From: Candidatus Saccharimonadales bacterium
Lineage (GTDB): Bacteria; Patescibacteriota; Saccharimonadia; Saccharimonadales; JAYRRP01
Length of the DNA: 48,443 nt
Assembly: GCA_041906765.1 (NCBI GenBank)
Contig: JAYRIP010000009.1
Span: forward strand, 1 to 48,443
Reading direction: 5' to 3'
Positions 35 to 46,952 of the stretch are shown here, piece after piece (position 1 is the first letter of the stretch; the number at the start of each line of letters is the position of its first letter). The notes beneath the pieces were generated by a model. That model saw only the letters and a list, made by a program, of their open reading frames with translations. It searched no databases and had not been told where the DNA came from. The translations under genes were made by a program, and so were the position numbers.

Positions 35-111
35 GCCCGCGTAGCTCAGTGGATTAGAGCATCTGTCTTCGGAACAGAGGGTCGGCGGTTCGAATCCGTC
101 CGCGGGTACCA
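35..111 (+). tRNA. tRNA-Arg (anticodon TCG), CCA encoded
   Basis: Cloverleaf read by eye: acceptor GCCCGCG/CGCGGGT, D stem GCTC/GAGC, anticodon stem TCTGT/ACAGA with loop CTTCGGA, T arm GGCGG-TTCGAAT-CCGTC, then A-CCA. Confidence 0.93.
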
Positions 112-117
112 CGAAAG

Positions 118-144
118 AGTCCCGGCTTTATGCCGGGCTTTTTC
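118..144 (+). terminator. rho-independent terminator after tRNA-Arg
   Basis: Stem CCCGGC (121-126) pairs with GCCGGG (132-137), loop TTTAT, followed by a T-run at 139-143. Confidence 0.7.
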
Positions 145-196
145 GTGTTTGTTACTGGTCTGATACAAATCGATGACCCATCAGAGAGGGGCGGTG

Positions 197-269
197 TGAG
201 ACATGCCAGTGGCATGTCGCAAGGTAATCTACTCTTGCAAACTGGTTTGCAAAGATGTAGTTACGGGCC
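197..269 (+). ncRNA. copy A of a conserved two-hairpin element (candidate structured RNA or recombination-site arm)
   Basis: 59/73 nt identical to 44024-44096. Hairpin 1 is 200-218 (8 bp, 3-nt loop). Hairpin 2 is 229-260 (13 bp, 2 bulges, 4-nt loop). Four double substitutions preserve pairing. Confidence 0.5.
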
Positions 270-280
270 TGCAGAATGTA

Positions 281-306
281 GGTCGAATATCCGTCCGCGG
301 GTACTA
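281..306 (+). repeat. degenerate duplicate of the tRNA-Arg 3' end (T loop plus acceptor strand)
   Basis: GGTCGAATATCCGTCCGCGGGTACTA compared with GGTTCGAATCCGTCCGCGGGTACCA at 87-111. The 14-nt core CCGTCCGCGGGTAC is identical. Confidence 0.75.
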
Positions 307-657: not shown

Positions 658-3600
658 ATGAGACAAAAAAGTATCAGTGTGGTAAAGCGTTACGGGGGTA
701 AACTCGCCAAAAATAGCGCTCACCATGCCCGCAAGAGCATACACGTGGCAACAAAGAGTGCCCGCATTGGGGCTAGTCAAGCCAAAAGAGTAGCCACGGT
801 TAGCGCCGTGCATGCCGCAAAAAGCTATAAATTTGCGCACCACCATCTAGTACAACGCCCTCACCAAAAGCTTGTACAGCATGTCGGGTGGTACCGTAGA
901 TGGCATGAGTGGCAGTGGCACCGCTTTACTCATTACGCAGCTTTATCTTTGTATACCTTAGTAATTGGCGTGATGCTGTTTAATACTTTCCGTGTGGCGC
1001 TTGCCGCAGATTTAAATGACACCTGGAACTTCTCAACACCAGGGGATTTCACTTTCGACAGCGGACTCGAAACAAGTGGGTCTGCAGCTAGGCTGAAAGC
1101 ACAGAATTATACAGCTGATTCGAATACCAAGGCGCTTTATCACCTTGATGACGGATCGGGCTCCAATTTGTCTGATTCTTCCGGGAGCGCCAATCCGGCA
1201 ACAGCGAGCGGATCACCTTCTTGGGTGACAGGGAACTTACAAGGCGGTCTGCAGTTAAATGGATCTACTCAATATGCTCAAGCAGCTGATTCAAGCTCTT
1301 TGTCATTGTCGCAGCAAAATAGTATAGAAGGCTGGACAAAATTTGGTAGCAGTTTTGGCAATAATACGCACAGCCAAGATCAGACAGTGGTGGACAAGGG
1401 TAGCTACAAACTGTACTACGATCGCACTACCGGCAAAGTTACGTACGAGCTGACGAACTCAGCGGCTACGAGCTGGACCCAACAAGCTGGAAACGACATC
1501 AAAGGCAGTTGGGACACCAACGGTAAATCTAATGTACTAACGCAAGTGGCGATTGGCAGTAATATATATGCTGGACTTGGTATAGGCACTGGCGACGCGG
1601 AAGTCTGGAAATGGAATGGGACAAGCTGGAGCCAGATCGGCGGCGATGGTAAGAATTCGAGTTGGGCTGATCAAACTTTTGAATCAGTTGCCTCGTTGGC
1701 GGCAAATGGCAATACGTTGTATGCCGGACTCGGCACAGGCGCCGGTGACGCGGAAGTCTGGAGTTGTGATACGAGCAGCGGCTGCAGCAGCTGGACCAAA
1801 ATTGGCGGTGACGGTTTGGATCCGGGCGCTCCGGGAAATGCATCGTGGGCTTCTGCGACTTATGAATCAGTTGAGAGCATGACCTACATGGGGAGCTACC
1901 TTTATGTCGGACTGGGAAATAGCGCCCAGGACGGCGAGGTCTGGCGGTTTAATCCGAGCAACTCAGATTGGACCAAGATCGGCGGCGATGGAGTTAATCC
2001 GGGTGGAGGTGCCTCTTGGACTACACTGGCGAATGTTGAAGAAGTCTACTCACTTGTCAACGATGGTACGTATTTATATGCTGGACTAGGTAATAGCACG
2101 AACGATGCGGCAGTCTGGCGGTTTAATCCTTCCACTAATGCCTGGTCCCAATTAGGTGGCCAATCATGCTGTGGCAGCTGGGGCGCAGTCCATGAGGATG
2201 CGCTTTCAATGACTACAATGAGCGGTAGCCTTTATGTTGGACTCGGCACAGGCACCGCCGATGCGGAAGTCTGGAAATATAACGGCAGCACCTGGACCAA
2301 AATCGGCGGCGATGGTACCGGGTGGGCAGATCTCACCTATGAAGGAGTATATTCACTCACGAACGATGGTACGAATGTATATGCAGGACTAGGGTATTCA
2401 ACCGGTGATAATGAAGTCTGGAAATATAACGGCAGCACCTGGACCAAAATCGGCGGCGACACAATAAACGGTGGTTTTAATGGCAGTGGCACTAACTACA
2501 TAACCAGTCTGCTTTATACTGGGGGGAATTTATATAGTGGGCATTCAGTTAACGGAACAAATGCCACCGGCGAAGTCTGGAAATATAACGGCACTAGTTG
2601 GTCACGCCTTGGCGGTAACTTCTTAAATTTAAGCTGGGGAGTATTAAATTATTCCAGTATTGATGCCATGACCGCCAGCGGCAACTATTTGTATGCCGGT
2701 ACAGGCGGCGCATATGCAGATATTGGGCAAGTCTGGCGGTTTGACGGCTCGACCTGGGAACTGATTGGCGGCATGGGGCTCAATAGCAGTTGGCCGGCCT
2801 ATACCTACGAAGGTGTCTATAGCTTGATTAATTATAAGGGTGATTTGTACGCTGGACTTGGTGTTAGTACTAATGATGCCGAAGTCTGGAAGTGGAACGG
2901 TACCACCTGGACGCAAGTGGGAGGGGATGGTCTTAATAGCGGCTGGAGCGGTATCCAAAGGGTGAGCGCGATGACTATCTATAACAATGAAATGTATGTT
3001 GGACTATATGGAACTGCAAATAATGGCCAGGTGTATAAATGGAACGGCACTTTGTGGACGTACGTAGGCGGTAATACCGTCGGTGGTGGTTACAATGCCT
3101 GGCCGGCCGGCTATGAGGCAATTACCAGTCTTTCGGTGGTGAATAACAAGATATATGCGGGGATGGCCAGCAGCACTGGGGATGCTGATGTCTGGCAACT
3201 GTCGGGTACCACCTGGACGCAAGTGGGAGGGGATGGTCTTAATAGCGGCTGGGTGGCGGCAACCTATGAAGATGTTGACAGTATGGTGGCTTATAACGGT
3301 AATTTGTATGCCGGAATTGGTACTAGTGCCGGCGATGCGGAAGTCTGGAAATATAACGGCAGCACCTGGACCAAAATCGGCGGCGATGACAGCGGCGGTG
3401 CTACTACTTGGTCTGACGGTCAATACGAGCAGGTGCGGAGCCTGGCAGTTTATAACGGAGAGCTTTATGCAGGATTGGGTAACTCTACGGGTGATGGCGA
3501 AGTCTGGAAATATAACGGCAGCACCTGGACCAAATCTGCCGGCGGTGGCGTTAACTCTAGCTGGGCTGCTGCCACAGTTTCCTATATTCCGTCTATGTCC

Positions 3601-6600
3601 GACTATAAAGGCAAGCTATATGTAGCTGCCGGCGGAATGGTGGGTTCAAACAATAACCCTCAAATTTGGTCTTTAGGTAGTAACGGCTTTTTGCAGAGTG
3701 CGGCCACTACGCAAGACACCAGTTGGCACCATATCGCAGCAACTTATGATGGTGCGACCATGAAACTATACATTGACGGCACGCTAAACAATTCAACCAG
3801 TGTATCGTTATCGATTCCGGACAATAGCTACCCACTGCTTATCGGCACAAATTATGGTGGTTCGGGGGCAGGTGAACAGCAGGGGTTTTTGGCGGGCTCA
3901 ATAGATGAAATAAGGATCTCAGACACTGCTCGAAGCAGTTTTACCACATTGCCCTACTCCAATTCGGTACAGAAAGTCACGTTGGCGAGTGCGGTGAGAT
4001 TGAGCGGAGTACGTGACTGGGAAGGGTTTAGCGCCAGTGAAACTGCGAACGGTGGCAACATAAAGTACCGGCTAAGTATTGATGGAGGTACTACCTGGAA
4101 GTACTGGACTGGCTCTTCGTGGGGAACATCTAGCTCTACGAGCGAAGCTAATACAGTCAGTACCGTAAACAGTAATATTAGCACGCTACCCGTTACGTTT
4201 GGCGGCATAATGTGGCAGGCAGTGCTATCGGGAGACGGAACACAGCAAGTTACCTTGAATTCAGTCACAGTAACGTCAAATTCTGACAATGTAGAGCCGA
4301 GTGCTAATGCGAGCGCAATCCAGGCGTACAAGTCGAACGGAGGTGCTTCGTTAACATCAAACGGATGGACTAACGGCAGCTCCCCTTACTTTACTTGGAC
4401 AGCTGGTAGCGATGCCGGCTCCGGTATAAAGGGGTATTGTTTATATCTGGGGACTGATAATACTGCTGATCCGGTTACTACCAAAGGTATGCTTGGCACC
4501 AGTCCGGTCACCACGGGTGGGCACTGCCAGTTCTTAATTGCGAGCAGCAACATTGATTTGGCTACTGCGGGATACTTGAGTACAGCTCTGACGACCAGTT
4601 CCAGCCCCTACTATCTCCGTATAAAAGCAATCGATAATGCAGGGAATGTTTACAGTGCCTCCACGGCCCAATTCCAGTTCCGCTTTGATAATACGCCGCC
4701 TTCGAACCCAGGCTACATTACGGCCCCCTCTGGGTTTATCAATACCAAAACGGCGAATCTTACTTGGTCAACTGTTGGCGGTCAGGCTCCGGCAGATAGC
4801 AACTCAGGAGTAGCGGGTCTTCAATACCGCGTAAACAATACTACCTGGTATGGCGACGGGCACACTGGTTCGGGTGACATTAATGATCTGTTAACAAATG
4901 ATGGCGATTACACCACTGCTGATCCGCCGGACTTTGATAATATCAACGAAGGGATCAACACAGTTTATTTCCGCACCTGGGATCAGGCCGGCAACGTAAC
5001 GTCAAGCTATGTTTCGGCAGCGCTTAAGGTCAATACCAACGGCTCTCCGACTGAGCCGCAAAATGTGGCTGCAACTCCTTCGACTAACACGACTAATTCA
5101 TTCTCATTTGATTGGGATGAACCGGCAACATATGTTGGAAGCGCAGGTAATCTAACCTATTGTTACACGATTAACACACTGCCCTCGGCCAATACCTGCA
5201 CCTTTACCTCCGCAGGTGTGACAAGTTTAGGTAGTGGACCCTACGCAACGCAGCCTGGCTCAAACACCTTCTACGTGGTAGCGCGGGATGAGTCCAGCAA
5301 TATAAATTACGCCAATTACGCTTCCACTACTTTTACTGCTAACACTTCTGCGCCTGGCATACCAACCAACACCGATATAGTGGATGTATCTATTAAATCG
5401 ACAAACAGCTGGCGGTTGGCACTTACCTGGGAACAACCGGCCAATACAGGATCGGGCATTACCAGCTACAAAGTATATCGTTCGACCAATAATGTTAGCT
5501 TTAGTTTCGTCGGATCGAGCTCTAGCACGACCTATATTGATGCGAATCTATCTCAACAAACTTATTACTACCGTGTAAGGGCATGTGACAACACTAACAA
5601 TTGTGGCGCAGAGAACGGTACAGTGCATATGCTGCCGACTGGTAAATTTACCACTCCTGCCGACATGACTTCAGAACCTACCGTTAGCAACATTACTACA
5701 AAGCGGGCACGGATCAACTGGTCGACTGACCGAGGGTCCGACAGTAAGATATCTATTGGTACCTCAAGCGGTCAGTACAGTCCTTCGGAAGTGGGCAATT
5801 CTAGCCAGGTTACTTCTCATGTAATCGACCTAGATAATCTGGCGGCAGGTACCACCTATTACTTCAGAGCTAAATGGACAGATGAAGATGGTAATACGGC
5901 GACAAGCGAAGAATATAGCTTCACTACATCGCCTGCCCCCCAACTGAAAGAAGTGGTGACGCTCAAGACAACATTAGCTGGTGCGATCATACAGTTTTCA
6001 ACTAAAGACGCTACCAAAGCAAATCTGTACTTTGGTAAATCTGATGCGTTCGGAGGTTTGAAATCAATTAATACGAGCGCCTCCGAGTCAACCTACAGCA
6101 TTGAACTCACCGGTCTTGATGATGGCACTAAATACTACTACAAGATAAGTACATTTGATGACGAAAATGGTGAATACCAAGGAACTATCTTCTCATTCAC
6201 TACTCCATCCAGGCCTCGGATCAGTAATCTAAAGTTCCAGCCGGTACAGGGGGAGCCCACTAGCACACAGAAAGTAACATGGGATACCAACGTGCCGACC
6301 ACTACTACCATTACTTATGGCAAACTGAATACTTCAGGTACAGATGTCCAGCAGTCACAACTTGTCACCGCACACGAAATAGTTATCCGTCAGCTCGAAG
6401 ATAACAGCCAATACTTCCTTATTGCCTCTGGCAGAGATGCTGATGGTAACTTATCTGCGTCGGACAGACAGCAATTCCACACGGCACTCGATACCAGATC
6501 GCCAAAAGTGACTGAGGTGGTAACCGAGCCTTCGATTAAAGGCTCCGGTGCAGAAGCTAGAGGACAGATCGTCGTATCGTGGAAAACTGATGAACCATCC

Positions 6601-6861
6601 ACCAGCCAGGTGGCTTATGCGGAAGGAAGTTCCAGTACGTCATTCAACAGCAAAACCGCTGAAGATACGCAACTTACCACTGAGCACCTGGTGATTGTTT
6701 CTGACCTGCCGACAAGCCGGGTCTTTAGCATTCAGCCTGTTTCGAAAGACAAAGCTGGTAATGCAGGCACGGGAGAACCGCAATCTGCCATCATAGGGCG
6801 AGCTTCAGATAGTGTGCTTACTATCATATTAAATACGCTAAGACGGGTATTTGGGATCTAG
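658..6861 (+). CDS. giant membrane-anchored surface protein: LamG-like domain, 14 beta-propeller blades, second LamG-like domain, multiple Fn3-like domains
   Basis: 2067-aa ORF with a basic N-terminus and one TM helix (YAALSLYTLVIGVMLF). About 50-aa repeats (LYAGLG..GDAEVWKYNGSTWTKIGGDG) occur 14 times. LamG signature WHHIAATYDG..KLYIDG...IDEIRISD. C-terminal Fn3-like repeats (..WxT....S.V.YG......Y.F). Confidence 0.9.
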   Translation: MRQKSISVVKRYGGKLAKNSAHHARKSIHVATKSARIGASQAKRVATVSAVHAAKSYKFAHHHLVQRPHQKLVQHVGWYRRWHEWQWHRFTHYAALSLYTLVIGVMLFNTFRVALAADLNDTWNFSTPGDFTFDSGLETSGSAARLKAQNYTADSNTKALYHLDDGSGSNLSDSSGSANPATASGSPSWVTGNLQGGLQLNGSTQYAQAADSSSLSLSQQNSIEGWTKFGSSFGNNTHSQDQTVVDKGSYKLYYDRTTGKVTYELTNSAATSWTQQAGNDIKGSWDTNGKSNVLTQVAIGSNIYAGLGIGTGDAEVWKWNGTSWSQIGGDGKNSSWADQTFESVASLAANGNTLYAGLGTGAGDAEVWSCDTSSGCSSWTKIGGDGLDPGAPGNASWASATYESVESMTYMGSYLYVGLGNSAQDGEVWRFNPSNSDWTKIGGDGVNPGGGASWTTLANVEEVYSLVNDGTYLYAGLGNSTNDAAVWRFNPSTNAWSQLGGQSCCGSWGAVHEDALSMTTMSGSLYVGLGTGTADAEVWKYNGSTWTKIGGDGTGWADLTYEGVYSLTNDGTNVYAGLGYSTGDNEVWKYNGSTWTKIGGDTINGGFNGSGTNYITSLLYTGGNLYSGHSVNGTNATGEVWKYNGTSWSRLGGNFLNLSWGVLNYSSIDAMTASGNYLYAGTGGAYADIGQVWRFDGSTWELIGGMGLNSSWPAYTYEGVYSLINYKGDLYAGLGVSTNDAEVWKWNGTTWTQVGGDGLNSGWSGIQRVSAMTIYNNEMYVGLYGTANNGQVYKWNGTLWTYVGGNTVGGGYNAWPAGYEAITSLSVVNNKIYAGMASSTGDADVWQLSGTTWTQVGGDGLNSGWVAATYEDVDSMVAYNGNLYAGIGTSAGDAEVWKYNGSTWTKIGGDDSGGATTWSDGQYEQVRSLAVYNGELYAGLGNSTGDGEVWKYNGSTWTKSAGGGVNSSWAAATVSYIPSMSDYKGKLYVAAGGMVGSNNNPQIWSLGSNGFLQSAATTQDTSWHHIAATYDGATMKLYIDGTLNNSTSVSLSIPDNSYPLLIGTNYGGSGAGEQQGFLAGSIDEIRISDTARSSFTTLPYSNSVQKVTLASAVRLSGVRDWEGFSASETANGGNIKYRLSIDGGTTWKYWTGSSWGTSSSTSEANTVSTVNSNISTLPVTFGGIMWQAVLSGDGTQQVTLNSVTVTSNSDNVEPSANASAIQAYKSNGGASLTSNGWTNGSSPYFTWTAGSDAGSGIKGYCLYLGTDNTADPVTTKGMLGTSPVTTGGHCQFLIASSNIDLATAGYLSTALTTSSSPYYLRIKAIDNAGNVYSASTAQFQFRFDNTPPSNPGYITAPSGFINTKTANLTWSTVGGQAPADSNSGVAGLQYRVNNTTWYGDGHTGSGDINDLLTNDGDYTTADPPDFDNINEGINTVYFRTWDQAGNVTSSYVSAALKVNTNGSPTEPQNVAATPSTNTTNSFSFDWDEPATYVGSAGNLTYCYTINTLPSANTCTFTSAGVTSLGSGPYATQPGSNTFYVVARDESSNINYANYASTTFTANTSAPGIPTNTDIVDVSIKSTNSWRLALTWEQPANTGSGITSYKVYRSTNNVSFSFVGSSSSTTYIDANLSQQTYYYRVRACDNTNNCGAENGTVHMLPTGKFTTPADMTSEPTVSNITTKRARINWSTDRGSDSKISIGTSSGQYSPSEVGNSSQVTSHVIDLDNLAAGTTYYFRAKWTDEDGNTATSEEYSFTTSPAPQLKEVVTLKTTLAGAIIQFSTKDATKANLYFGKSDAFGGLKSINTSASESTYSIELTGLDDGTKYYYKISTFDDENGEYQGTIFSFTTPSRPRISNLKFQPVQGEPTSTQKVTWDTNVPTTTTITYGKLNTSGTDVQQSQLVTAHEIVIRQLEDNSQYFLIASGRDADGNLSASDRQQFHTALDTRSPKVTEVVTEPSIKGSGAEARGQIVVSWKTDEPSTSQVAYAEGSSSTSFNSKTAEDTQLTTEHLVIVSDLPTSRVFSIQPVSKDKAGNAGTGEPQSAIIGRASDSVLTIILNTLRRVFGI
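2266..2312. repeat. identical intragenic block GAAGTCTGGAAATATAACGGCAGCACCTGGACCAAAATCGGCGGCGA
   Basis: Exact copies at 2266-2312, 2413-2459 and 3340-3386. A 36-nt core copy lies at 3499-3534. Copies 1 and 3 also share extra flanking bases. Confidence 0.9.
2899..2946. repeat. second identical intragenic block (48 nt)
   Basis: GGTACCACCTGGACGCAAGTGGGAGGGGATGGTCTTAATAGCGGCTGG occurs at 2899-2946 and 3205-3252. Confidence 0.9.
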
Positions 6862-43961: not shown

Positions 43962-43971
43962 ACCCCTGTTA

Positions 43972-43980
43972 TGCTACAAT
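43972..43980 (+). promoter_or_regulatory. extended -10 box TGcTACAAT upstream of the tRNA-Glu locus
   Basis: Lies 26 nt upstream of the 17-nt tRNA-Glu 5' fragment. Same box type as upstream of tRNA-Arg. Confidence 0.45.
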
Positions 43981-44006: not shown

Positions 44007-44023
44007 GGCCTCATCGTCTAACG
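44007..44023 (+). repeat. 17-nt duplicate of the tRNA-Glu 5' end
   Basis: GGCCTCATCGTCTAACG is identical to 44182-44198. Confidence 0.85.
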
Positions 44024-44096
44024 TGAGAATTGCCGGTGGCAATTCGCAAGGGAATCTTCTCTTGAAAACTTGTTTTCAAAGATGAAGTTCCGGGGT
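44024..44096 (+). ncRNA. copy B of the conserved two-hairpin element
   Basis: Homologous to 197-269. Hairpins at 44027-44045 and 44056-44087. Confidence 0.5.
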
Positions 44097-44181
44097 CGCC
44101 AGAGGTGACTAGGACATCTTAACCGTTAAGGCTAAATGATTGGCACAAGTACCTTAAAATCATAGATAAGTATCCAGATAT

Positions 44182-44256
44182 GGCCTCATCGTCTAACGGT
44201 TAGGACACCAGGTTTTCATCCTGGCAATAGGGGTTCGATTCCCCTTGAGGTCACCA
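44182..44256 (+). tRNA. tRNA-Glu (anticodon TTC), CCA encoded
   Basis: GGCCTCA..CGTCTAACGGTTAGGAC-A-CCAGG-TTTTCAT-CCTGG-CAAT-AGGGG-TTCGATT-CCCCT-TGAGGTC-A-CCA. Confidence 0.92.
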
Positions 44257-45925
44257 TAGGAAAATTATCGCCAAGCAAGGCTTGGAAGACTGGATTCACC
44301 CCTGTAATATGGGGTGATTTTTGGTTTCGGAAAGCTAAATCATTGTAGGTTGGTAATTTCTTGAATATGACCCCGAAAAGTTGAGCTTTTTTGGTATCGT
44401 TACTCTGTTGATTGATAACCTGTCCGATGTTTTCGGAAAACTTCTTGACTCTGGTTATAACCTTGTCTATATCCATAGGTTTTTTAGTTTCCATGTTCAT
44501 CCTTTCTAGTGCTAGGCGCTTAATCTGTTGATCGATATTCTCTAGCTCTTCATTGACATACTTCTGAGCTGAGGAAGCAATAGTGGTAAAACTTTTGGTG
44601 AGCTCTCTGGCTTGAGCTTCAAGCCGAGTAATCTGTGAATCAGTGGCCGCCGTCTTAGCTTCATAAAGGGCTAGATGTTGCTCATACTTTTCGCGTACAA
44701 CCGCAAAGACCTCATCCACTCGTTCTTTAGAAAAGACTAAGTCATTAATGAAATCATAGACCTTAGTCTCAAGATCTTCTTTCGTGACTCTGAATTTGTG
44801 ACCTCGTTTATCACAGTGGTAGTACGAGTAGTATTTGCCGGTTTTGCCTCGTGAAGTGCTACCTGACAGGGGTTTATTACACTCAGGGCACATAACATAG
44901 TGCTTGAACGCAAAGTCATTGTTGCGCGTGCCTCGTACGGTGGCATTGCGTGGAGCGATGCTATCATGGATGGCTATTTTGTTTCCGGGCATTTCAATAA
45001 TGACTCGTTTGCCTTTATTGGCGCGGTTGAATAGCTCGACTGACACCAGACCATCGAACATACATTTCACTGGCTGGTATTTTGTCCACTTTTCGACATT
45101 TACACCTACATAGATTGGATTGCGTACCATTTTCCAGAGCTTTTTATGGTCAAGTAGACTACCTTCAGTTTTGCCAACCACACGATTTCGGTTTTCTTTA
45201 GAACGTCGGTACTGTGGCCGACCATGATAACCCAAGTCATTGAGCTTGGTGGCAATTTCTTTATCTGAGAATTGTTCACTGGCTCTGAGCTCAAATAGTT
45301 TAACGATAAACTTTGCTTCTTCAGGATGCGGCTTCAATATAGTGCGTTTGCCGTGCTGAGTCTCGACTTTTTCTCCCGTAAAGCCGTAAGGTGGTTTACG
45401 CATCCAGTAGCCCATCTGGGTATAGCGAATTTCAGCACCAATAACTCGGCTTAGTATGTCTCGTACTTCATCCTTAGATCTTTCAGCTTCTAACATCTCG
45501 GACTTACGACTAGGTGAGTAGGTGCTCCACTTGTAGCTATGACCGAGATGCTCTAGAGTATTAACTTTCTCCTGACTAATAACGCCGTAGGTATCAATGA
45601 GGGTCACGCCGTGGCTATCGAGCTGGGTTTTTAGCGCATCGTAAGACATTGAGCCTCCGCGGGTAAAACGATCGATTGACTTAACGATGAATAAGTCAAT
45701 ATCGTTTTTCTTATCCTTGCAGTAATCAACCGCTCCTTGCATAGGCTGTTGTTCTTTGCTGGCCGATTCCATAAAGACAAAGAACTTTTTAATTACAATA
45801 CCTTTGTTTTGGGCAAAGCGTTCGATTTGCTCCTTCTGAGCCTCGGGTGAGTCGCCATCACGACCTTGCTTAGAAGTTGAGACCCGAATAGCAGCGATAG
45901 CGTTTCGGTTACGAGCTGGTATCAT
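44216..45925 (-). CDS. large serine recombinase (integrase)
   Basis: Catalytic AAIRVSTSKQ and DRFTR, recombinase domain, zinc ribbon CPECNKPL...YYHCDKRGH, and a coiled coil. RBS GAGGAG lies upstream of the ATG at 45925. The last 41 nt run antisense to tRNA-Glu. Confidence 0.92.
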   Translation of the reverse strand: MIPARNRNAIAAIRVSTSKQGRDGDSPEAQKEQIERFAQNKGIVIKKFFVFMESASKEQQPMQGAVDYCKDKKNDIDLFIVKSIDRFTRGGSMSYDALKTQLDSHGVTLIDTYGVISQEKVNTLEHLGHSYKWSTYSPSRKSEMLEAERSKDEVRDILSRVIGAEIRYTQMGYWMRKPPYGFTGEKVETQHGKRTILKPHPEEAKFIVKLFELRASEQFSDKEIATKLNDLGYHGRPQYRRSKENRNRVVGKTEGSLLDHKKLWKMVRNPIYVGVNVEKWTKYQPVKCMFDGLVSVELFNRANKGKRVIIEMPGNKIAIHDSIAPRNATVRGTRNNDFAFKHYVMCPECNKPLSGSTSRGKTGKYYSYYHCDKRGHKFRVTKEDLETKVYDFINDLVFSKERVDEVFAVVREKYEQHLALYEAKTAATDSQITRLEAQARELTKSFTTIASSAQKYVNEELENIDQQIKRLALERMNMETKKPMDIDKVITRVKKFSENIGQVINQQSNDTKKAQLFGVIFKKLPTYNDLAFRNQKSPHITGVNPVFQALLGDNFPMVTSRGIEPLLPG

Positions 45926-46022
45926 CCTGATTCTCCTCAAGTACAAGTTCAAGTAAAATATCCGCTAGTAGATCGATCTGCTCGTCTCTTTCTACTTCAC
46001 TAGTCGATATTTCATTAGCCAT
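45909..46022 (-). CDS. 37-aa acidic small ORF overlapping the recombinase start (candidate directionality or regulatory factor)
   Basis: MANEISTSEVERDEQIDLLADILLELVLEENQDDTSS. RBS GAGGG lies 5 nt upstream. 17-nt overlap with the recombinase gene. Too short for the ORF track. Confidence 0.3.
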   Translation of the reverse strand: MANEISTSEVERDEQIDLLADILLELVLEENQDDTSS

Positions 46023-46217
46023 GATACCCTCGTAAACTATTGATTATAGCTATAGTTTACTATAGAATATAGCGTTAGTTCAATAGTATAGCCACAGTAA
46101 TATTTACAATTGTGGATATCTTATCGTTAAGATACCTATATAATCATTTCTAATCAGTTATATTTGTACGTTATTGTTATATAATTACCTATACTGCGTA
46201 TAGGAGTAGATAGTACA

Positions 46218-46952
46218 GTGAAAGAGCCAAAATACCGACGACCATTAAACCCTCAGCAAATTACTATTCTTAATACTCTCTATAAGTTTAGATTTACTAA
46301 TATTGCTTTACTTGCACAGAACCAACAAGCCAACCCTAGAGTTATATCAAGCAGACTAAAGATATTAGTAGATCAAGGCTATATCGGTATGAACTATGAT
46401 AGTAGCTATAAGATAGCTAGAAGACCAGCTACATACTATCTAGCTACTAAAGGTGTCCGATTCTTACGAACACAACCATACACAAGCGAATCAGCTCTTA
46501 GAAGCATCTACCACGACAAGCGAGTTGAAGACCATAGAATTAGTCACCGATTGAATGTTTTCAAAGCCTATATACAGCTCAAACATAGCTATCCAGATAG
46601 ATATAAGTTCTACAGCAAAACTGAGCTTATGGACAAAGATTACGTACCTAAAACTAAGCCAGACGCATACATAGTAGATAAAGAAGCCGACAATTCCTAC
46701 TTCCTGGAGTGTCTAGAGGACAATATGACCTACTGGACGCTACGCAAAACCATACGGAAATACATAACTTTCACTGAGATGGAGATATGGAGACAATATA
46801 AAACCAATCAATCACATCCGGAAGTGCTACTTATATGTGAGTCGGAGAGGCTTGAGAGGACAGTAAAAAAGCTGGTCGAGAAAGAATTAGATCGTAGCTA
46901 TGTTGAGCTAGGGGTCAAGGTGGTTGATCCAGACGAAGAATTTCTGGTTTGA
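46218..46952 (+). CDS. replication-relaxation (Replic_Relax)-like winged-helix protein
   Basis: N-terminal wHTH pattern L..QQI.IL..LYKFRF....LLA........V..RL..LVDQGYI......YY.L..KG..FL. GTG start 11 nt after AGGAG. Confidence 0.5.
   Translation: MKEPKYRRPLNPQQITILNTLYKFRFTNIALLAQNQQANPRVISSRLKILVDQGYIGMNYDSSYKIARRPATYYLATKGVRFLRTQPYTSESALRSIYHDKRVEDHRISHRLNVFKAYIQLKHSYPDRYKFYSKTELMDKDYVPKTKPDAYIVDKEADNSYFLECLEDNMTYWTLRKTIRKYITFTEMEIWRQYKTNQSHPEVLLICESERLERTVKKLVEKELDRSYVELGVKVVDPDEEFLV

What the first reader, a model, noticed from the sequence alone, without database searches (positions are those of the whole stretch)
197..269. Conserved 73-nt two-hairpin element present twice, each copy fused to a tRNA-gene fragment, with four compensatory base-pair swaps
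197-269 and 44024-44096 align without gaps, with 59/73 positions identical. Eight of the 14 differences form four double substitutions that keep Watson-Crick pairing. In hairpin 1, C202-G216 becomes A-T and A203-T215 becomes T-A. In hairpin 2, A231-T258 becomes T-A and C238-G249 becomes A-T. Two more differences fall in the hairpin loops and the rest in the linker or tail. The shared skeleton is TGAGA-[8-bp stem, 3-nt loop]-TCGCAAGG.AATCT-[13-bp stem with two conserved bulges, 4-nt loop]-TT.CGGG. Copy A ends 11 nt before a degenerate tRNA-Arg 3' fragment. Copy B starts immediately after a 17-nt tRNA-Glu 5' fragment. Both lie downstream of TGnTACA-type -10 boxes (161-169 and 43972-43980), so both could be transcribed. 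I could not match it to tmRNA, SRP RNA, RNase P RNA, a T-box, common riboswitches or small ribozymes. It could be an uncharacterised structured RNA, or a palindromic recombination arm of tRNA-targeting elements.
Basis: seen in the sequence. Interest (0 to 1): 0.78.

Follow-up and report, generated by a model that had tools for sequence, protein, structure and literature searches.

The report
tRNA-gene-associated three-hairpin insertion element
The two repeats are members of a large, apparently undescribed family of about 88-nt, three-hairpin elements that Saccharibacteria carry inside leftover pieces of tRNA genes next to intact tRNA genes, and they look like the conserved module of small mobile insertions rather than a free-standing regulatory RNA.

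Summary
The two copies (59/73 identical) are the first 73 nt of an 87-nt element with a third hairpin: 197-283 and 44024-44110. A pattern scan found the element in 116 loci from about 92 Saccharibacteria species genomes. A covariance model then found about 140 copies. The structure is strongly supported: 97.5% of cells paired, and 23 of 34 pairs carry compensatory changes. Rfam has no match. The element sits at a loop position of a partial tRNA copy, on the tRNA-sense strand, beside an intact tRNA. Copy A is in the T-loop of a tRNA-Arg 3' fragment downstream of tRNA-Arg. Copy B is in the D-loop of a tRNA-Glu 5' fragment upstream of tRNA-Glu. Removing the element almost never restores a tRNA, so it is not a normal intron. 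Tandem arrays, nested copies, decayed copies, cargo genes and hits in a non-tRNA hairpin all point to a mobile module without a protein gene. It appears to insert at tRNA genes while an intact gene is kept. The enzyme, and whether the active form is RNA or single-stranded DNA, are unknown.

The parts
35..111 (+). intact tRNA-Arg(TCG), the gene that copy A is associated with
   Evidence: ARAGORN; Rfam tRNA 67.9 bits
121..146 (+). intrinsic terminator of tRNA-Arg, between the intact gene and the insertion unit
   Evidence: terminator scan. Related downstream-type units in other genomes have the same layout
157..179 (+). possible degenerate antisense copy ('a') of the tRNA-Arg variable-loop/T-arm region
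   Evidence: local alignment of the reverse complement to tRNA 3' part, score 18. Not significant for this copy alone. The segment is significant across the family
183..196 (+). short sense copy ('s') of tRNA-Arg variable loop and 5' strand of the T-stem, directly 5' of core A
   Evidence: 185-194 AGAGGGGCGG matches 76-85 AGAGGGTCGG at 90%
197..283 (+). core copy A, 87 nt: P1 197-221, P2 224-264, P3 267-283
   Evidence: covariance model hit at 97.0 bits, E 1e-21; consensus structure
284..304 (+). displaced, decaying tRNA-Arg 3' fragment (rest of T-loop, T-stem 3' strand, acceptor 3' strand; CCA lost)
   Evidence: 289-304 identical to 94-109; junction mapped to the T-loop
43970..43980 (+). native tRNA-type extended -10 promoter (TATGCTACAAT) that now drives the displaced tRNA-Glu fragment plus core B
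   Evidence: the exact motif occurs only here and before tRNA-Arg at 15-24
44007..44023 (+). displaced tRNA-Glu 5' fragment (positions 1-17, up to the D-loop)
   Evidence: identical to 44182-44198; junction mapped to the D-loop
44024..44110 (+). core copy B, 87 nt: P1 44024-44048, P2 44051-44091, P3 44094-44110
   Evidence: covariance model hit at 99.6 bits, E 3e-22
44110..44131 (+). short sense continuation of tRNA-Glu (TAGGACA, D-stem 3' strand), then a quasi-palindromic segment (TCTTAACCGTTAAGG) antisense-like to the D-loop region
   Evidence: read from the sequence. The same flank is conserved in L033
44132..44181 (+). A/T-rich spacer or leader between the unit and the intact tRNA-Glu
   Evidence: read from the sequence. 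No consensus promoter was found by the scan
44182..44256 (+). intact tRNA-Glu(TTC), the gene that copy B is associated with
   Evidence: ARAGORN; Rfam tRNA

Best explanation
The repeat is the conserved core of a family of small mobile insertion units that carry no protein gene and live at tRNA genes of Saccharibacteria. SHOWN: the core is 87-90 nt and folds, on the tRNA-sense strand, into three hairpins with conserved joining sequences. It always lies in the tRNA's orientation. It sits at a loop position of a partial tRNA copy: the T-loop 54/55 in most cases, and also the D-loop, anticodon loop or variable loop. On the short side the interrupted stem is completed by a roughly 10-nt sense stub. 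This stub is often followed or preceded by a segment antisense to the uninterrupted target. Next to the unit lies an intact tRNA, usually of the same identity. It is separated from the unit by a terminator in 'downstream' units such as copy A, or by an A/T-rich leader in 'upstream' units such as copy B. INFERRED: the unit enters a tRNA gene by recombination in the tRNA segment it shares with the gene. An intact gene is thereby regenerated from element-borne sequence and the native piece is displaced outward, as with classical tRNA-targeting islands. The folded core, more likely as single-stranded DNA of the sense strand than as RNA, marks and presents the interrupted stem-loop to an enzyme encoded elsewhere. 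The core can also insert alone at sites resembling GG^(N)TCG. Copy A is an old, decaying downstream unit at tRNA-Arg. Copy B is an upstream unit at tRNA-Glu that is read through from the native tRNA promoter.
For: Family size and taxonomy: 118 pattern loci, of which 116 are real, from about 92 species genomes, nearly all Saccharibacteria; the scan was truncated. Structure: 97.5% of cells paired against 78% in shuffles and 27-45% in slid controls, and 23/34 pairs have compensatory changes. G-U pairs at two P3 positions are retained, which makes the fold strand-specific. Architecture: 41 downstream and 36 upstream units, and every neighbouring tRNA is on the same strand. The tRNA 3' end lies 69-94 nt before the core, or the tRNA start lies 120-165 nt after the core start. 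Junctions lie in the T-loop (38/41 downstream; 14 upstream), D-loop or D-arm (9), anticodon loop (5) and variable region (2). The direct repeat usually stops exactly at the mature tRNA end, and the flanks beyond it are unrelated. This is what is expected if one copy is element-borne. The antisense segment matches the unit's own tRNA better than other tRNAs: mean score 19.2 against 12.4, with 21/41 above the 95th percentile. Signs of mobility include tandem arrays on both sides of one tRNA in L040 and four nested cores at the same site of another core. There are also hits in a conserved non-tRNA hairpin in four genomes and a spread of intact to decayed copies at 27-110 bits. The same tRNA carries different unit types in different species. 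Cargo genes (OLD-family ATPase, PLD nuclease, methyltransferase-NUDIX) lie between the tRNA and the core in 'orphan' units. Downstream units sit behind a terminator, which argues against a need for transcription.
Against: No recombinase or transposase is linked to the core. ORF clustering around 118 loci found only housekeeping synteny, and the window's serine recombinase is unrelated. No empty site or excised form was found: close strains all carry copy B, and the empty-site pattern was absent from metagenomes. No copy was found in viral contigs. The role of the antisense segment is unexplained. It is weak in upstream units (7/36) and in window copy A. Its pairing with the 3' flank is not clearly above permuted controls. 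In L014 and L067 the interrupted copy and the intact neighbour are diverged or even different tRNAs, which does not fit a simple insertion-with-duplication model. The Glu D-loop units of the window, L033 and L054 look orthologous, so some copies are old and stably inherited rather than recently mobile. RNA versus ssDNA cannot be decided from sequence.
Confidence: 0.55

Rival explanations
1. The 87-nt core alone is a miniature single-strand transposon, comparable to IS200/IS605-derived PATEs or REPINs moved by an HUH enzyme in trans. It inserts into loops of hairpins formed by the sense strand. It is lethal in functional tRNA genes, so it survives only in redundant partial tRNA copies (att scars) left earlier by ordinary tRNA-integrating islands. 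On this view the tRNA fragments, stubs and terminators are not part of the element.
For: Four nested insertions of a bare core into the same site of another core carry no stub or repeat. The core also inserts in a non-tRNA hairpin loop. There are no terminal inverted repeats or target-site duplication, and there are hairpins at both ends. The orientation is strictly sense-strand. Other displaced tRNA fragments without this core exist in the same genomes, for example L037 and L073. The short stubs are what the core-type arms of a classical attP would leave.
Against: The spacing between the intact tRNA and the core is very tight in 77 units, which is not expected for random scars. The non-tRNA hairpin target also has an intact copy right beside the hit copy. 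This suggests that the duplication comes with the insertion. P1 and P3 are unlike each other, whereas IS200/IS605 ends resemble each other. No Y1/HUH gene was seen near any copy.
Confidence: 0.2
2. The core is a functional structured RNA. It could be an intron-like or self-processing element of tRNA transcripts, or a small RNA released from tRNA leaders and trailers. On this view the antisense segment acts as a splint that aligns the two flanks for cleavage and ligation or for RNase processing.
For: Covariation is strong and the fold is specific to the tRNA-sense strand. Insertion points lie in single-stranded loops of the folded tRNA and in a junction of the core itself. Upstream units are transcribed from the native tRNA promoter. 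One complete tRNA-Gly(GCC) gene (L113) is interrupted in the T-loop, and a tRNA is recovered when 84 nt are removed. Predicted folds place the core as a branched bulge on a helix formed by the antisense segment and both flanks. The core of window copy A is intact (97 bits) although its tRNA flanks have decayed.
Against: In-silico excision over about 108,000 boundary combinations restored a tRNA spanning the junction convincingly in only one of 121 instances. Most interrupted copies lack half of the tRNA. Downstream units lie behind strong terminators without a recognisable promoter. No Rfam ribozyme, intron or other family matched, even at E up to 10. Many copies are decayed, and this kind of birth-and-death pattern is typical of mobile DNA.
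Confidence: 0.17
3. The two copies are a recent local duplication or a chance palindrome pair without wider significance.
For: Only two copies exist in the 48-kb window.
Against: There are more than 140 homologues in about 92 species, with compensatory variation. The two window copies differ at 22/87 positions, almost all compensatory.
Confidence: 0.01

Closest known systems
Genomic islands and integrative elements that target tRNA genes, including tandem island arrays at tRNA/tmRNA genes such as tycheposons or the Dehalococcoides ssrA islands
   Same: There is an intact tRNA plus a displaced partial copy as a direct repeat. The repeat ends at the mature gene end. Element-borne sequence restores the gene. 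Crossover positions lie in the T-loop or anticodon loop. Arrays build up at one tRNA, and cargo or defence genes are sometimes enclosed.
   Different: Most units are only about 175-195 bp and encode no integrase. An 87-nt structured core lies inside the loop of the displaced stem-loop. 5'-side (upstream) units are as common as 3'-side units. The D-loop and variable loop are also used.
Folded single-strand recombination sites: integron attC sites and the CTX-phage attP(+) hairpin used by Xer recombinases
   Same: The imperfect hairpins are strand-specific, with conserved bulges and covarying stems. Inverted copies of the target can pair to mimic the duplex target. Insertion regenerates the target and allows arrays of small cassettes, some with a single gene.
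   Different: No R'/R'' boxes or dif-like sequence are present. The fold is three separate hairpins rather than one. No integron integrase is linked. The target is a tRNA gene. The pairing of the antisense segment is only partly supported statistically.
Small non-autonomous structured repeats (REPINs/REPs moved by RAYT, PATEs derived from IS200/IS605, MITEs)
   Same: The size is about 90 nt. The hairpin structure is conserved through compensatory change. There are many copies per clade, nested and decayed copies, and no coding capacity.
   Different: There are no terminal inverted repeats or target-site duplication. The end hairpins are dissimilar. Location is strictly inside tRNA-gene fragments beside intact tRNAs. 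No RAYT or TnpA gene was found nearby.
tRNA introns (bacterial group I introns in anticodon loops; archaeal introns at non-canonical positions; split and permuted tRNA genes)
   Same: The interruption of tRNA sequence falls at loop positions, including 37/38, the D-loop and the T-loop. One complete interrupted gene exists (L113).
   Different: The element is too small and lacks a group I core (no Rfam hit). The interrupted copies are nearly always truncated and sit beside an intact gene, so splicing is neither needed nor able to yield a tRNA.

Membership tests
Any curated RNA family (Rfam 15: tmRNA, SRP, RNase P, T-box, riboswitches, small ribozymes, group I/II introns) | covariance-model match at or near the gathering score | tested here: not met
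   The whole window at gathering gave only three tRNAs. Both copies with flanks at E up to 10 gave only weak spurious hits of at most 22 bits. Ten further loci gave nothing at the element.
tRNA intron | removal of the insert restores a complete, foldable tRNA | tested here: not met
   About 108,000 excision variants of 121 instances were run through ARAGORN. Only L113 gave a convincing result. Neither window copy did.
tRNA intron | group I catalytic core or bulge-helix-bulge splice motif | tested here: not met
   No group I match in Rfam. The 87-nt, three-hairpin fold has no BHB at the junctions. The BHB check was by inspection only.
tRNA-targeting integrative element (island) | intact tRNA plus displaced partial tRNA as a direct repeat bounding the insert | tested here: met
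   Window: 94-109 = 289-304 and 44182-44198 = 44007-44023. There are 77 further units.
tRNA-targeting integrative element (island) | integrase gene within the element, next to the att site | tested here: not met
   Mini-units have no ORF. ORFs next to 'orphan' cores are OLD ATPase, PLD, methyltransferase-NUDIX or unknown. No shared protein cluster was found. The window LSR has no homologue in 118 loci.
MITE | terminal inverted repeats and a short target-site duplication | tested here: not met
   The ends TGAGA... and ...GTGAC/GTAGG are not inverted repeats. No constant short duplication flanks the core.
IS200/IS605-derived PATE or REPIN | similar subterminal hairpins recognised by a Y1/HUH enzyme, with that enzyme present in the genome | tested here: inconclusive
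   Hairpins lie at both ends, but P1 and P3 differ in sequence. No candidate enzyme was seen within 8-kb loci. Whole genomes could not be searched.
Integron attC | R''/L''...L'/R' boxes (RYYYAAC / GTTRRRY) in a single imperfect hairpin, arrays next to intI | tested here: not met
   The consensus has GNAAUCU.../...AGUUNC at the P2 base and GTTNCGG, which does not fit GTTRRRY. The fold has three hairpins, and there is no integrase nearby.
IS110/IS1111 bridge or seek RNA | non-coding RNA with two internal guide loops, encoded beside a DEDD recombinase gene at the element end | tested here: not met
   No adjacent ORF. The target-specific segments lie outside the conserved hairpins, not in internal loops.
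Retron ncRNA | adjacent reverse transcriptase gene | tested here: not met
   No ORF is associated with the units.
CTX-type folded ssDNA attP (IMEX) | two inverted copies of the target site that pair in the single strand; use of host Xer at dif | tested here: inconclusive
   An inverted copy of the target is present and specific in about half of downstream units. Pairing with both flanks is seen in predicted folds, but it is not clearly above permuted controls for the 3' flank. Xer/dif involvement is not testable here.

The most novel reading that the evidence does not exclude
This could be a new class of mobile element whose unit of recognition is a folded single strand. In this reading an 87-nt three-hairpin core inserts into hairpin loops of structured-RNA genes (tRNA T-, D-, anticodon and variable loops, its own junction, and a terminator-like hairpin). 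It carries element-borne sense and antisense copies of the target that act as a splint or guide, which would make the target choice programmable, and it always leaves an intact gene copy behind. Alternatively, the core could be a new small self-processing RNA of bacterial tRNA transcripts.
Probability: 0.25. Interest if true: 0.9.

Novelty: new variant of a known kind. Interest (0 to 1): 0.78.

Why it matters
Saccharibacteria and other CPR bacteria have tiny genomes and few recognised mobile elements. This work shows that their tRNA genes are bordered by a large, previously uncurated family of structured mini-insertions, plus at least two sister families with the same layout. These insertions enclose accessory and defence genes in some cases. 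If the mobile-module reading is right, it describes how small gene cassettes enter and accumulate at essential genes in streamlined genomes without a linked integrase. The core is also a practical marker for island boundaries and tRNA pseudo-fragments in metagenome-assembled genomes. If the target-specific sense and antisense segments really guide insertion, the system would be a new, very compact route to site-specific insertion. If the core is instead an RNA that is processed out of tRNA transcripts, it would be a new kind of bacterial tRNA intervening sequence. In either case the family has enough sequences and covariation to be curated now.

Tried and rejected
1. Known RNA family: rejected.
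2. Ordinary intron: in-silico excision with ARAGORN failed except for L113.
3. A linked protein: all-against-all clustering of 925 ORFs from 118 loci gave only housekeeping synteny groups such as ABC transporters, histidine kinases, SHMT and LemA. Pfam on the ORFs next to 'orphan' cores gave cargo, not recombinases. L066's neighbouring ORF is EF-G.
4. The window's large serine recombinase as the mobilising enzyme: it has no homologue in any locus. Exact-sequence look-ups of it failed.
5. Phage origin: no match in viral contigs.
6. Empty-site or polymorphism search: two close strains carry an identical filled site B, and the predicted empty-site sequence is absent from metagenome contigs.
7. 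A third copy near tRNA-Lys in the window: none found with the unfiltered model search.
8. A splint pairing test by longest exact complement was only marginal for the 3' flank. I therefore do not claim it as shown.
9. Identity of the conserved non-tRNA hairpin target: no Rfam family.
10. Literature: seven full-text searches found no description of this element.
11. Considered and set aside on anatomy alone: CAST delocalised crRNA, IscB/TnpB guide RNA, IS110 bridge RNA, retron and integron attC (see membership tests).

Full report
**1. Observation**

The two stretches are as described. 197-269 and 44024-44096 align without gaps with 59/73 identical. A fifth lies at 225/263. The last two differences (208, 244) are in hairpin loops. 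So none of the 14 differences disrupts pairing.

The conserved linker occurs exactly twice in the window, against 0.01 expected. Both copies fold better than shuffles.

The element is longer than reported. A third hairpin follows (267-283 in copy A, 44094-44110 in copy B), giving an 87-nt unit. The '11 nt' between copy A and the tRNA-Arg fragment is that hairpin.

**2. Not a known RNA**

Rfam 15 finds only the three tRNAs in the window at gathering thresholds. With permissive thresholds around each copy it finds nothing meaningful.

**3. A large family**

I scanned one genome per species with the pattern TGAGA-N15-TCGCAAGG-N-AATCT. About 116 are true members, from about 92 assemblies. Almost all are labelled Candidatus Saccharibacteria, Saccharimonadales or Saccharimonadia. 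The few other labels are on short contigs of metagenome bins.

An alignment of 102 distinct copies (A2) gives a three-hairpin consensus:
- P1 has 10 pairs around a conserved A/G mismatch and a GCC-NGU-GGC top.
- P2 has about 17 pairs with conserved bulges and a conserved GNAAUCU/AGUUNC base.
- P3 has 7 pairs with an RRA triloop.
- The joiners are AG and GG.

97.5% of cells are paired, against 78% in column shuffles and 27-45% when partners are slid. 23 of 34 pairs show changes on both sides, and there are 634 double-change cells against 181 in shuffles. Two P3 positions keep G-U in 86 and 48 of 102 sequences. This makes the fold specific to the strand that is also the tRNA-sense strand.

A covariance model (R1) finds only the two copies in the window, at 99.6 and 97.0 bits. 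In the 118 loci it finds about 140 copies, scoring from 110 down to 27 bits. These include copies the pattern had missed.

**4. Context**

The flanks of the core are pieces of tRNA genes. ARAGORN on the oriented contexts shows that every tRNA within 400 nt is on the same strand as the core. The units fall into two tight classes.

*Downstream units (41).* The order is: intact tRNA; terminator; about 20 nt; often a segment antisense to the variable loop and T-arm of that tRNA; a roughly 10-nt sense stub (variable loop plus T-stem 5' strand); the core; then the rest of the T-loop, the T-stem 3' strand, the acceptor 3' strand and CCA. The tRNA 3' end lies 69-94 nt before the core.

*Upstream units (36).* The order is: a tRNA 5' part that starts at +1 and runs to the junction; the core; a short sense continuation; a short antisense-like segment; an A/T-rich leader; then the intact tRNA, which starts 120-165 nt after the core start.

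Junctions lie as follows:
- T-loop in 38/41 downstream units.
- In upstream units: T-loop (14), D-loop or D-arm (9, plus two Glu cases), anticodon loop or stem (5) and variable region (2).

Beyond the mature tRNA ends the two repeat copies are usually unrelated. This is the pattern expected when one copy was brought by an element. Exceptions where the repeat runs into the terminator or promoter are L009, L040, L078, L104 and L023.

The antisense segment is specific for the unit's own tRNA in about half of the downstream units. The mean score is 19.2 against 12.4 for other tRNAs, with 21/41 above the 95th percentile. It is weaker in upstream units (7/36).

**5. The window copies**

*Copy A* is a downstream unit at tRNA-Arg(TCG):
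- tRNA at 35-111.
- Terminator at 121-146.
- Degenerate stub at 183-196.
- Core at 197-283.
- Decaying fragment at 284-304 with a 2-nt insertion in the T-loop and no CCA.

*Copy B* is an upstream unit at tRNA-Glu(TTC):
- Native tRNA-type promoter TATGCTACAAT at 43970-43980. The same motif precedes tRNA-Arg.
- tRNA-Glu positions 1-17 at 44007-44023.
- Core at 44024-44110, inserted in the D-loop.
- TAGGACA (D-stem 3' strand) and a quasi-palindrome.
- A 50-nt spacer.
- The intact gene at 44182-44256.

The same Glu D-loop unit, with similar flanks, occurs in L033 and L054. So this insertion is old and inherited. The 43.7 kb between the copies is ordinary chromosome: a giant surface protein, ABC transporter, DHFR-like protein and histidine kinase, among others.

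**6. Not an ordinary intron**

I removed the insert in silico with about 108,000 boundary combinations over 121 instances. A tRNA spanning the junction was recovered convincingly only for L113. L113 is a complete tRNA-Gly(GCC) gene with its own promoter and the core in its T-loop. In all other cases the interrupted copy lacks a large part of the tRNA and sits beside an intact gene. The rarity of complete interrupted genes suggests that the insert is not efficiently removed from RNA, and that hits in sole-copy genes are selected against.

**7. Signs of mobility**

- One tRNA-Arg(TCT) in L040 carries three tandem 190-nt upstream units and one downstream unit.
- Four loci (L010, L069, L072, L100) have a second bare core inserted at the same point of a first core, CGGG^GTCGC. 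This site resembles the T-loop site GGG^TTCGA and the variable-loop site GG^GTCG.
- Four genomes have the core in the loop of a conserved non-tRNA hairpin (stem-AGAGGG^GGTGGGCACC-stem), again with an intact copy next to it.
- Copies range from intact to badly decayed.
- The same tRNA carries different unit types in different species. For example, tRNA-Glu(TTC) has downstream T-loop units in L002, L060, L062 and L096 but upstream D-loop units in the window and L054.
- In 'orphan' downstream units the space between the tRNA and the core holds one or a few accessory genes: an OLD-family ATPase, a PLD nuclease, a methyltransferase-NUDIX fusion and unknowns. In L095, 4.4 kb with a P-type ATPase lies between two identical copies.

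**8. What is missing**

No protein is consistently linked. Clustering of 925 ORFs around the cores gave only housekeeping synteny. The window's large serine recombinase (44216-45952, overlapping the 3' end of tRNA-Glu) has no homologue in any locus. Together with a Replic_Relax protein (46218-46952), it belongs to a separate integrated element on the other side of tRNA-Glu.

There are no copies in viral contigs. I found no empty allele: two close strains are identical at copy B, and the predicted empty-site sequence is absent from metagenome contigs.

**9. Mechanism**

*Shown:* the three-hairpin, sense-strand-specific core; its placement at loop positions of partial tRNA copies; the intact neighbour; the stub and the (often present) antisense copy; and the arrays, nesting and decay.

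*Inferred:* the units are protein-less mobile modules. They recombine with a tRNA gene in the tRNA segment they share with it. Recombination on the long-arm side of the core reproduces both observed layouts. It regenerates an intact gene and pushes the native piece outward, in the manner of classical tRNA-targeting islands.

The core is probably recognised as a folded single strand. I favour ssDNA of the sense strand. For co-oriented, highly transcribed tRNA genes this is the strand that is exposed during replication and transcription. Downstream units also lie behind terminators, which argues against a need for transcription. Predicted folds show the antisense segment pairing with both flanks, so that the core is a branched bulge on a helix. 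This recalls folded single-strand att sites (integron attC, CTX attP(+)). My simple statistical test supports only the pairing with the 5' stub clearly (14/41 against 10% in controls). The pairing with the 3' flank is marginal. I therefore treat the splint idea as a hypothesis.

*Rivals:*
- The core alone is a hairpin-loop-seeking mini-transposon that survives only in redundant att scars.
- The core is a functional or self-processing RNA.

Both are kept in the report with their tests.

**10. Comparison and novelty**

The closest known systems are:
- tRNA-targeting integrative islands and their arrays. The repeat logic is the same, but there is no integrase, the size is tiny, and there is a structured insert in the loop.
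- Folded single-strand recombination sites.
- REPIN/PATE-type structured mini-repeats.
- tRNA introns. The positions are the same, but the defining test failed.

Seven full-text literature searches found no description, and Rfam has no model. I rate the finding as a new variant of known kinds (tRNA-associated integrative or mini-repeat elements). There is a real chance (about 0.25) that the mechanism is categorically new.

**11. Sister families**

The same layout (tRNA, terminator, antisense copy, stub, structured insert, displaced tRNA 3' piece) occurs with unrelated inserts. A 'type 2' insert sits in the T-loop of tRNA-Ser, tRNA-Arg and tRNA-Val in L009, L015, L050 and L094. A 'type 4' module follows tRNA-Thr and tRNA-Tyr in L073. 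It ends with a hairpin that is almost identical to P1 of the present core. So the phenomenon is broader than this one family.

Noticed in passing
window 44216-46952: A large serine recombinase gene (Resolvase + Recombinase + Zn-ribbon domains) on the minus strand runs into the 3' end of tRNA-Glu. It is followed by a Replic_Relax family gene. Together they look like a separate integrated plasmid-like element on the right side of tRNA-Glu, whose far end lies beyond the window.
   Followed up: partly
L009 3590-3765; L050 5230-5440 (minus strand); L094 6740-6880; L015 about 2100-2260 (minus strand): A second, unrelated structured insert ('type 2': GGTTCGG-YG-AGCGAA ... GAGCGGAA ... GATAT) sits in the T-loop of displaced tRNA 3' fragments with the same layout. 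It has a conserved CTTTTGCG-N-AGCAAAAG hairpin between the antisense copy and the stub.
   Followed up: partly
L073 about 1250-1950 (minus strand): A third module ('type 4', about 110 nt) follows tRNA-Thr and tRNA-Tyr. It starts with an antisense T-arm copy and ends with a hairpin GAAGTGCC-ACT-GGCACTTC, nearly identical to P1 of the core, placed 4 nt before an uninterrupted displaced T-loop. This suggests a shared recognition hairpin across families.
   Followed up: no
L118 2170-2215; L020, L041, L114: A conserved terminator-like hairpin has a covarying stem and an invariant loop, (A/T)GGGGGTGGGCACC. It has no Rfam match and is also a target of the core. Its identity is unknown.
   Followed up: partly
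L113 2739-2930 (minus strand): A complete tRNA-Gly(GCC) gene with its own promoter is interrupted by the core in the T-loop, with no intact copy in the next 170 nt. It is either a pseudogene or the one case that would need removal of the insert.
   Followed up: partly
L095 841-931 and 5235-5325: Two identical units (antisense copy, stub, core, tRNA-Lys 3' fragment) flank a 4.4-kb segment encoding a heavy-metal-type P-type ATPase and two other proteins. This could be a cassette-like islet or a tandem duplication.
   Followed up: no
L091, L027, L003 (ORFs just upstream of the core): The genes enclosed between the tRNA and the core include an OLD-family AAA ATPase/TOPRIM nuclease, a PLD-like nuclease and a methyltransferase-NUDIX fusion. 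This content is accessory or defence-like.
   Followed up: partly
window 112-146 and many loci: tRNA terminators in these genomes are long palindromes whose A-tract/T-tract arms extend to pair with the encoded CCA end (CCA ... TGG).
   Followed up: no
L067 4000-4290; L014: In L067 the interrupted 5' fragment is tRNA-Met(CAT)-like but the adjacent intact gene is tRNA-Val(CAC). In L014 the interrupted and intact tRNA-Leu(TAA) copies differ throughout, and each is internally co-adapted. The two copies therefore need not share a recent origin.
   Followed up: no
L037 1155-1240 and L062 (downstream of the unit): The same ~45-nt sequence AAGACGCTTCGCTCGTGTCTAC-AAAAAGCCAAGACATTGGCTTTT occurs next to tRNA genes in two different assemblies. 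In L037 it is directly followed by a displaced tRNA-Pro 3' fragment with no core.
   Followed up: no
window 658-6861: A 2067-aa ORF encodes a repeat-rich predicted surface protein directly downstream of unit A.
   Followed up: no
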